DNA of 14,819 nt from Escherichia coli (lineage in GTDB: Bacteria; Pseudomonadota; Gammaproteobacteria; Enterobacterales; Enterobacteriaceae), in the NCBI RefSeq assembly GCF_003334355.1, contig NZ_QOWP01000051.1. One strand, 5' to 3'. The notes beneath the pieces are model-generated. The model worked only from the letters and a program-made list of their open reading frames with translations. It was not told the origin of the DNA and searched no databases. Shown one piece after another: positions 1 through 303 of the stretch (its first letter is position 1; the number at the start of each line of letters is the position of its first letter). The position numbers and the translations under genes are program-made.

Positions 1-303
1 ATCTGATGGAAATGGAAGCCACGCAAGCACCTTAAAATCACCATCATACACTAAATCAGTAAGTTGGCAGCATTACCCTTTATATGATAGATGGCTTGTT
101 TATAACGATGAAAATTTAGAAAGGGCATTGTGATCTACAATTGGAAGAAACACAGATTTAACTAAGTTTCATATACAAACATCTCGTGAAACTTTGAAAA
201 ATAAAAGCCTTCGATATTTCATATGTTTAATAAGTTTTTCTCTAATTTGTTGATCAACAATACCAGGAGGTGATGCACCACGCCCTGAATTTGAACTTAA
301 TAA

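What the first reader, a model, noticed from the sequence alone, without database searches (positions are those of the whole stretch)
1..303. AT-rich (~34% GC) non-coding left flank with a 14-bp GATC-containing palindrome
The 303 bp downstream of cusS have about 34% G+C by my count, well below the adjacent coding sequence, and contain no ORF of 60 aa or more on either strand. Positions 247-260 form a perfect palindrome TTGTTGATCAACAA centred on a Dam GATC site, about 45 bp beyond the cusS stop. The cus locus is absent from some related enterics, so this may be an island boundary, a promoter region for a minus-strand gene lying left of the window, or a binding site for a dimeric regulator.
Basis: seen in the sequence. 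Interest (0 to 1): 0.3.

Follow-up and report, generated by a model that had tools for sequence, protein, structure and literature searches.

The report
IS1 end beside a vgrG-island edge
The "AT-rich non-coding flank" is two ordinary things joined together, the tip of an IS1 insertion sequence and the AT-rich edge of a known type VI secretion (vgrG/Rhs) island next to cusS, and its 14-bp GATC palindrome looks like a chance feature.

Summary
The facts are right: 33% G+C, no ORF of 60 aa or more, and a perfect TTGTTGATCAACAA at 247-260. The stretch is composite, though.

- **Bases 1-77:** 77/77 identical to the left end of E. coli IS1F. They hold the terminal inverted repeat, a promoter-like site and the first 7 codons of insA on the minus strand.
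- **Bases 78-303:** 100% identical to the cusS-proximal 226 bp of a 736-bp, about 27-30% G+C spacer. In IS-free E. coli (e.g. O111) this spacer separates the cusS stop from an orphan vgrG–DUF1795/EagR–Rhs island of about 10.8 kb.
- **Island boundary:** K-12 and E. whittamii lack the island and have nfrB next to cusS. Homology breaks within the last codons of cusS. The boundary is real, but it belongs to the vgrG/Rhs island, not to cus.
- **IS1 hotspot:** the spacer holds at least 9 distinct IS1 junctions in the genomes examined. This window's junction is in none of 5,426 complete genomes.
- **Palindrome:** as common as chance allows (2 seen, 1.3 expected in the window). It is degraded, with GATC lost, in a divergent allele and deleted in the O157 allele. 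No terminator, RNA family or fold signal supports it.

Ordinary; low interest.

The parts
1..77 (-). Left (IRL) end of an IS1F-type IS1 element, cut by the window edge. The outer tip ...GGCAGCATTACC ends at base 77.
   Evidence: 77/77 identical to the first 77 nt of the annotated IS1F of K-12 MG1655, but 67/77 to an IS1B copy. Identical to the IS1 ends in ETEC1730 and S163-2. The query hits a median of 10 places per E. coli genome, annotated as IS1 family transposase.
1..22 (-). 5' end of insA: GTG start at 22-20, then codons for ASISIR, running off the window.
   Evidence: Translation VASISIR. The position matches insA7 of IS1F in K-12.
43..70 (-). Sigma-70-like site CTGCCA-16-TATGAT inside the IS1 end, upstream of insA.
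   Evidence: It is the only promoter-like match in window 1-400. Equating it with the known IS1 IRL promoter rests on my own knowledge.
78..303 (.). cusS-proximal 226 bp of the 736-bp AT-rich spacer that lies between cusS and vgrG of the orphan vgrG–EagR–Rhs island in IS-free strains.
   Evidence: 100% identical to spacer positions 511-736 of O111 (L006 5491-6226). G+C is 0.305. Present in about 2,370 of 5,426 genomes at 99% identity or more, with nothing annotated under it.
78..86 (.). CTTTATATG, the presumed 9-bp IS1 target site. The duplication is expected at the other IS1 end, which lies outside the window.
   Evidence: Inferred. IS1 copies in the same spacer in D5, 203740, Z1323PEC0011 and KTa005 are flanked by 9-bp duplications.
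247..260 (.). Perfect 14-bp palindrome TTGTTGATCAACAA with a central GATC. Most likely incidental.
   Evidence: Sequence read. At chance frequency. Reads TTATTGATAAATAA in the divergent allele and is deleted in the O157 allele. As a hairpin it gives only -1.9 kcal/mol, z -0.66.
304..1758 (-). cusS (484 aa) with the tail ...[12 protein letters not shown]. The last codons, about 307-328, mark the homology break with K-12-type genomes.
   Evidence: ORF and translation. K-12 ends ...VITLPA* and the divergent allele ...LPEKG*.

Best explanation
The interval is a junction of two mobile or accessory DNAs. It is not a dedicated regulatory element.

**The IS1 insertion**
- An IS1F-type IS1 has transposed into the AT-rich DNA just downstream of cusS.
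- Its left inverted repeat abuts base 78, and insA reads leftward out of the window.

**The DNA it landed in**
- Bases 78-303 are the cusS-side end of a 736-bp, about 27-30% G+C spacer.
- This spacer is the outer edge, and the upstream region of vgrG, of an island of about 10.8 kb: vgrG–DUF1795/EagR–Rhs toxin–immunity–rhs fragments–ISEc1.
- The island is the orphan vgrG locus Z0700-Z0707 of EHEC. It sits between cusS and nfrB in roughly half of E. coli and is missing in K-12.
- The island edge even supplies the last codons of CusS.

**Why IS1 is here**
- AT-rich, presumably H-NS-bound, horizontally acquired DNA of this kind attracts IS1.
- That explains the many independent IS1 insertions in this spacer, and the IS1-mediated deletions of the island.

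**The palindrome**
- It is an incidental feature of AT-rich sequence.

**Shown versus inferred**
- Shown: the sequence identities, the synteny, the multiple IS1 junctions and the lack of palindrome conservation.
- Inferred: H-NS binding, the target preference as the cause, that the spacer carries the vgrG promoter, and whether the IS1 in the source genome is a simple insertion.
For: **IS1 identity**
- 77/77 match to K-12 IS1F.
- insA start present.
- Promoter-like site in the IS1 end.

**Spacer identity**
- 100% match to O111 spacer positions 511-736.

**Island anatomy and boundaries**
- O111, DFL.5 and O157 loci.
- The K-12 intergenic region is retained next to nfrB on the far side of the island at 99.5% identity over 202 bp.
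- K-12-type adjacency in E. whittamii and another E. coli lineage.
- Rhs-type composition: core about 60% G+C, spacer 26.8%.
- The island is described in the literature as an orphan vgrG locus of EDL933 (PMC7216683; PMC12981562).

**IS1 hotspot**
- Junctions at spacer positions 81, 82, 93, 382, 384, 396, 484, 511 and 520. Four have 9-bp duplications.
- 49 genomes have an IS1 end within a few hundred bp of this flank.
- Neighbouring DNA is rearranged in ETEC1730, PSJ-07, WEM25 and 162.2.
- No complete genome has this exact junction.

**Palindrome**
- Chance statistics.
- Allele comparison.
- No Rfam family.
- No terminator-like site.
- No fold signal.

**General support**
- H-NS-bound AT-rich acquired DNA is a transposition hotspot (PMC11335895). 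That work covers IS5-family elements only.
Against: - The window ends inside IS1, so neither the other IS1 end, nor the target duplication, nor the presence of vgrG in the source genome can be seen.
- H-NS binding and IS1 target preference were not measured here. IS1's AT-rich preference and its dependence on H-NS are recalled from the older literature, not tested.
- The palindrome is identical in about 2,330 genomes, but the flanks are equally invariant, so this says nothing either way.
- In the divergent allele 6 of 7 symmetric pairs survive, one through a change on both arms (G3→A and C12→T). This could hint at constraint. It is equally what AT-biased decay of G:C pairs would give.
- Only one independent divergent allele was available.
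Confidence: 0.88

Rival explanations
1. The palindrome is an operator for a dimeric regulator, or a Dam-methylation-sensitive switch controlling the vgrG–Rhs island. Known examples are the Fur/Dam switch at the sci1 T6SS promoter, OxyR/Dam at agn43 and Lrp/Dam at pap.
For: - A perfect 7+7 dyad centred on GATC.
- It lies in the upstream region of a T6SS vgrG gene in IS-free strains.
- Six of 7 dyad pairs are retained in the divergent allele, one by a change on both arms.
- It occurs in only 3.5% of shuffles of the 303-bp region.
Against: - At the level of the whole window such palindromes are at chance frequency (2 against 1.29).
- There is a single GATC rather than a cluster, and GATC density is as expected.
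- GATC is lost in the 91-genome divergent allele.
- The whole segment is deleted in about 334 O157-type genomes that keep vgrG.
- It lies about 680 bp upstream of the vgrG ATG and 43 nt after the cusS stop.
- No similar site (2 mismatches or fewer) occurs elsewhere in the island or the K-12 loci examined.
- From recalled consensus sequences, it does not fit the spacing of the FNR site (TTGAT-N4-ATCAA), the Fur box or the CusR box.
Confidence: 0.04
2. Bases 78-303 are the cusS 3' UTR. They would carry the cusRS terminator or a 3'-derived small RNA, with the palindrome as part of an RNA hairpin.
For: - The segment lies directly downstream of cusS on the transcribed strand.
- Small imperfect hairpins can be drawn at 262-296 and 247-260.
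Against: - No terminator-like site in 1-400 or anywhere in the 736-bp spacer.
- RNA folding is no better than shuffles: z +0.77, with 154 of 200 shuffles folding at least as well.
- The palindrome hairpin gives -1.9 kcal/mol.
- No Rfam match above noise.
- K-12-type genomes have entirely different DNA after cusS.
Confidence: 0.04
3. The AT-rich flank is a decayed remnant of a protein-coding gene. A 44-codon stop-free stretch continues in frame after the cusS stop: LLSSNSGRGASPPGIVDQQIREKLIKHMKYRRLL... The palindrome would be left-over coding sequence (V-D-Q-Q).
For: - A stop-free 44-codon frame on the minus strand at 169-303, plus several 35-60-codon frames in the full spacer.
- Rhs islands often carry gene fragments.
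Against: - No NCBIfam family at E ≤ 1 for any of the six longest frames.
- tblastn against the plasmid collection finds only the same E. coli locus.
- The divergent allele has a 2-bp indel in this frame.
- RefSeq annotates nothing here in more than 2,300 genomes.
- Frames of this length are unremarkable. The large protein databases were not searched.
Confidence: 0.06

Closest known systems
IS1 family insertion sequence, isoform IS1F (E. coli K-12, 4518472-4519239)
   Same: - The terminal 77 nt are identical, including the inverted-repeat tip GGTAATGCTGCCAACTTA..., the promoter-like site and the insA start MASISIR.
- Related copies in the same spacer show 9-bp target duplications.
   Different: - Only the first 77 of 768 bp are in the window.
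- The insertion site (spacer position 511) is not found in any of 5,426 complete E. coli genomes.
Orphan vgrG–EagR(DUF1795)–Rhs island next to cusS. It is called vgrG1 (z0707)/z0706/rhsF z0705 in PMC7216683 and the vgrG-2 orphan locus Z0700-Z0707 in PMC12981562.
   Same: - Window 78-303 is the cusS-side end of this island's 736-bp AT-rich leader, 100% identical to O111.
- The composition pattern is typical of an Rhs element.
   Different: - The island body is not in the window. IS1 interrupts the leader 510 bp upstream of where vgrG would start.
- The O157 allele of the leader lacks about 170 bp, including the palindrome.
- The equivalence to the Z-numbered locus tags is inferred from gene order, not checked in EDL933 itself.
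Dam/regulator epigenetic switches: Fur–Dam at the EAEC sci1 T6SS promoter, OxyR–Dam at agn43, Lrp–Dam at pap
   Same: A GATC embedded in a symmetric sequence upstream of a T6SS gene.
   Different: - There is one GATC rather than a cluster.
- It is far from any mapped promoter.
- It is not conserved between alleles.
- It shows no resemblance to the Fur, OxyR or Lrp site architectures as I recall them.
- Methylation state is untested.

Membership tests
IS1 insertion sequence | Terminal inverted repeat of IS1 (GGTRATG...CCAACTTA) at the element tip | tested here: met
   The tip is at window 77. The end is 77/77 identical to IS1F.
IS1 insertion sequence | insA reading frame starting just inside IRL | tested here: met
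   GTG at 22-20, translating VASISIR. The position matches insA7 of K-12. Only 7 codons are visible.
IS1 insertion sequence | Complete 768-bp element with insA/insB' and a second inverted repeat | not testable with these tools
   The window ends 77 bp into the element.
IS1 insertion sequence | 8-9 bp target-site duplication | not testable with these tools
   The other junction lies outside the window. A 9-bp duplication is seen for four IS1 copies in the same spacer in other strains.
vgrG/Rhs T6SS effector island (orphan vgrG locus next to cusS) | Flank continuous with the vgrG upstream spacer in uninterrupted genomes | tested here: met
   Window 78-303 equals O111 spacer positions 511-736 at 100% identity.
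vgrG/Rhs T6SS effector island (orphan vgrG locus next to cusS) | Island absent from some genomes, with conserved DNA on both sides (presence/absence polymorphism) | tested here: met
   K-12, L011 and E. whittamii have nfrB adjacent to cusS. The K-12 intergenic region is retained beyond ISEc1 in O111.
vgrG/Rhs T6SS effector island (orphan vgrG locus next to cusS) | vgrG, DUF1795/EagR and Rhs genes present in the source genome | not testable with these tools
   They would lie left of the window. IS1 in this spacer goes with loss of the island in some strains and with its retention in others.
Dam-sensitive regulatory switch or operator | Conservation of the site, including GATC, across diverged alleles | tested here: not met
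   TTATTGATAAATAA in DFL.5, 2012C-4502 and AH50. Deleted in the O157 type.
Dam-sensitive regulatory switch or operator | Clustered GATC sites, or enrichment, within regulator sites at a promoter | tested here: not met
   Two GATC in 303 bp against 1.55 expected, and one in the palindrome. No promoter match nearby.
Dam-sensitive regulatory switch or operator | Protected (unmethylated) GATC in vivo, or demonstrated protein binding | not testable with these tools
   This needs methylome or footprinting data.
Intrinsic terminator of cusRS | G+C-rich stem-loop followed by a T run | tested here: not met
   No terminator-like sites in window 1-400 or in the full spacer. Folding gives z +0.77.

The most novel reading that the evidence does not exclude
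The GATC palindrome 43 nt after cusS could be a Dam-sensitive binding site. It would gate read-through or local chromatin between the copper/silver-sensing cusRS operon and the downstream, same-strand vgrG–Rhs effector island. Metal stress would then be coupled to deployment of a type VI toxin, and the IS1 insertion in this strain would uncouple the two.
Probability: 0.03. Interest if true: 0.5.

Novelty: already known. Interest (0 to 1): 0.08.

Why it matters
It matters little beyond correct annotation.

- The window's left edge is an IS1 copy, a likely assembly or rearrangement breakpoint. It is not a regulatory region of cus.
- The low G+C is explained by the edge of a known, variably present type VI secretion effector island.
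- One modest point may be useful. The 736-bp AT-rich leader between cusS and vgrG is a recurrent IS1 landing pad. IS1-mediated deletions from it remove the vgrG/Rhs island, and sometimes nfrBA, in natural isolates. This is one route by which E. coli strains lose this effector locus.

Tried and rejected
1. **Coding remnant.** Six stop-free frames of the spacer searched against NCBIfam gave nothing at E ≤ 1. A tblastn of the 44-aa in-frame continuation of cusS against plasmids found only the same locus in mislabelled E. coli chromosomal records.
2. **Structured RNA or terminator.** Rfam at a permissive threshold gave only sub-threshold noise: RAGATH-6 at 24 bits against a gathering score of 170, plus rliB and snoU13. 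There were no terminator-like sites and no folding signal.
3. **vgrG promoter.** Promoter-like sites in the spacer number 3 against 4.4 expected, so the consensus scan cannot locate the vgrG promoter.
4. **Repeats at the island ends (att-like or target duplication).** The only shared sequence is one 9-mer, TCACCTCCT, which is unconvincing.
5. **Other copies of the palindrome.** None with 2 mismatches or fewer in the K-12 loci or the O111 island. One 2-mismatch and three 3-mismatch sites occur inside genes elsewhere in the window.
6. **Known operator consensus sequences (FNR, Fur, CusR box, CRP), recalled from memory.** None fits in spacing. No motif database was available, so this is a lead, not a test.
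7. **Cross-species conservation.** The genome-contig scan with CusS returned no other species carrying this spacer. Citrobacter and other genera have unrelated DNA after cusS. Conservation could therefore only be judged between E. coli alleles.
8. **Literature.** A search for cusS together with vgrG and rhs found nothing relevant.

Full report
**Observation**

Window 1-303 has 33.3% G+C, against 52% for cusS and 51.4% for the whole window. TTGTTGATCAACAA lies at 247-260, is a perfect 14-bp palindrome and is centred on a GATC. cusS is on the minus strand at 304-1758, and its stop codon at 304-306 lies 43 nt from the palindrome. No complete ORF of 60 aa or more lies in 1-303.

The palindrome is not statistically special:
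- 3.5% of dinucleotide shuffles of the 303-bp region contain one of at least that length.
- The whole window has 2, the other being TGGATCATGATCCA inside cusS, against 1.29 ± 1.19 expected.
- GATC density is as expected, 2 against 1.55.

**The interval is composite**

Bases 1-77 are the left end of an IS1 element. The reverse complement, GGTAATGCTGCCAACTTACTGATTTAGTG...GTGGCTTCCATTTCCATCAGAT, is 77/77 identical to the first 77 nt of the annotated IS1F of K-12 MG1655. It is 67/77 identical to an IS1B copy.

This end contains:
- the inverted-repeat tip, ending at base 77;
- the only sigma-70-like match in 1-400 (CTGCCA-16-TATGAT, 70→43, minus strand);
- the insA start (GTG at 22-20, translating VASISIR), which runs off the window.

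A query that includes these bases hits a median of 10 places per E. coli genome, annotated as IS1 transposase. The left part of the "non-coding flank" is therefore a transposable element with the start of a gene.

**What bases 78-303 are**

They are 100% identical to the last 226 bp of a 736-bp spacer in O111:H8 strain 7-54 11A (L006 5491-6226).

In IS-free genomes (O111, DFL.5, O157) the order on one strand is as follows:
- cusR, cusS;
- the spacer;
- vgrG, a DcrB-related/DUF1795 (EagR) gene, and an Rhs-family toxin;
- small immunity-like ORFs and rhs fragments;
- ISEc1;
- nfrB, nfrA, ybcH, envY, ompT.

The composition is typical of an Rhs element. The core is about 60% G+C, the tips 32-40%, and the spacer 26.8%.

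The literature describes this as an orphan vgrG locus of EHEC EDL933. One paper names it vgrG1 z0707, EagR z0706 and rhsF z0705 (PMC7216683). Another calls it the "vgrG-2 orphan locus Z0700-Z0707" (PMC12981562). I infer the equivalence from gene order in an O157 genome.

**Island boundary**

K-12 has nfrB 149 bp after cusS. A second E. coli lineage (L011) and E. whittamii (L012) have the same arrangement.

In O111 the K-12 intergenic region survives next to nfrB, beyond ISEc1, at 99.5% identity over 202 bp. Homology on the cusS side stops within the last codons of cusS.

The CusS tail differs between types:
- ...VIMLPERE* in the window;
- ...VITLPA* in K-12;
- ...LPEKG* in a divergent allele.

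About 10.8 kb therefore replaces about 24 bp around the K-12 cusS stop. Citrobacter and other genera have unrelated DNA after cusS, and their tails after the conserved "LP" also vary. Another Escherichia lineage (L010) shares the PERE* tail but has yet another downstream sequence. The spot just after cusS is variable in general.

**IS1 hotspot**

IS1 tips were mapped onto spacer coordinates, where position 1 lies next to the vgrG ATG. The junctions are at:
- 81 and 484 (KTa005);
- 82 (162.2);
- 93 (PSJ-07);
- 382 (Z1323PEC0011);
- 384 (203740);
- 396 (ETEC1730 group);
- 511 (this window);
- 520 (D5 group).

Four of these have clean 9-bp target duplications. Several others are joined to foreign DNA in place of the island:
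- sfm fimbrial genes in ETEC1730;
- DLP12 prophage remnants in PSJ-07;
- a truncated nfrB in WEM25;
- a truncated nfrA in 162.2.

An IS3 sits in the same spacer in EC2001. Forty-nine complete genomes have an IS1 end within a few hundred bp of this flank. None has the window's exact junction, since every full-coverage hit consists of two separated pieces.

That AT-rich, H-NS-bound acquired DNA captures transposons has been shown for IS5-family elements (PMC11335895). IS1's preference for AT-rich targets and its dependence on H-NS are from my own recollection of the older literature. Neither was tested here.

**The palindrome across alleles**

Three alleles of this segment exist in 5,426 complete genomes:
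- The window type occurs in about 2,370 genomes at 99% identity or more. Flanks and palindrome are equally invariant, so this is uninformative.
- A divergent type, about 74-75% identical, occurs in 91 genomes. There the site reads TTATTGATAAATAA. GATC is lost, three of the four G/C positions have become A/T, and one dyad pair is broken.
- The O157 type occurs in about 334 genomes. About 170 bp, including the site, are missing, while vgrG and cusS are intact.

The site lies about 680 bp from the vgrG ATG. No Rfam family, terminator-like site or fold signal supports an RNA role. No protein family matches any stop-free frame. No related site occurs elsewhere in the island. I conclude the palindrome is incidental, at about 85-90% confidence.

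**Verdict**

This is an ordinary junction: the IS1F end, then the AT-rich leader of a known orphan vgrG/Rhs island, then the cusS stop.
- The island-boundary idea is supported, though for a different island.
- The "promoter for a leftward gene" idea holds trivially for insA, and plausibly for vgrG in uninterrupted strains.
- The regulator-site idea is not supported.

Interest is low.

Noticed in passing
window 1327-1350 (cusS, minus strand): CusS carries a (Gly-His)4 repeat (GHGHGHGH, residues 137-144), whereas O111 and, from memory, K-12 have (GH)3. This makes CusS 484 aa here against 482 aa in O111. It is a repeat-length polymorphism in the periplasmic sensor domain.
   Followed up: partly
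window 1649-1662: A second perfect 14-bp palindrome, TGGATCATGATCCA, lies inside cusS coding sequence and contains two GATC sites. It shows that such palindromes occur at chance frequency in this window.
   Followed up: no
window 304-328; L004, L010, L080: The CusS C-terminal tail after the conserved 'LP' differs by downstream context: ERE* here, A* in K-12, EKG* in the divergent allele, and other tails in Citrobacter. The recombination breakpoints therefore lie inside the last codons of the gene.
   Followed up: partly
L005 (E. coli S163-2) 6782-7549 and 10143-10910: This strain has IS1 copies inside both cusS and cusC, so its cus system is probably inactivated. Its vgrG also has an internal stop.
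   Followed up: no
L010 (Escherichia sp. MOD1-EC7003) 6441-7600: A third kind of DNA follows cusS, with the same PERE* tail. It includes what looks from memory like an ERIC-type repeat, and the contig ends in a transposase-like sequence. Neither vgrG nor nfrB lies within 1.1 kb.
   Followed up: no
L082 (E. coli EC2001) 1809-3000: An IS3 lies in the same AT-rich spacer, about 155 bp from cusS. The vgrG island and most of nfrB are deleted, so elements other than IS1 also use this spacer.
   Followed up: no
L007, L080, L081 against window 78-303: The spacer's two main alleles are only about 75% identical, whereas DFL.5 is 90.8% identical to the window over the 1,124-bp flank-plus-cusS query (window 77-1200). 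This points to fast decay or to replacement of the island leader by recombination.
   Followed up: partly
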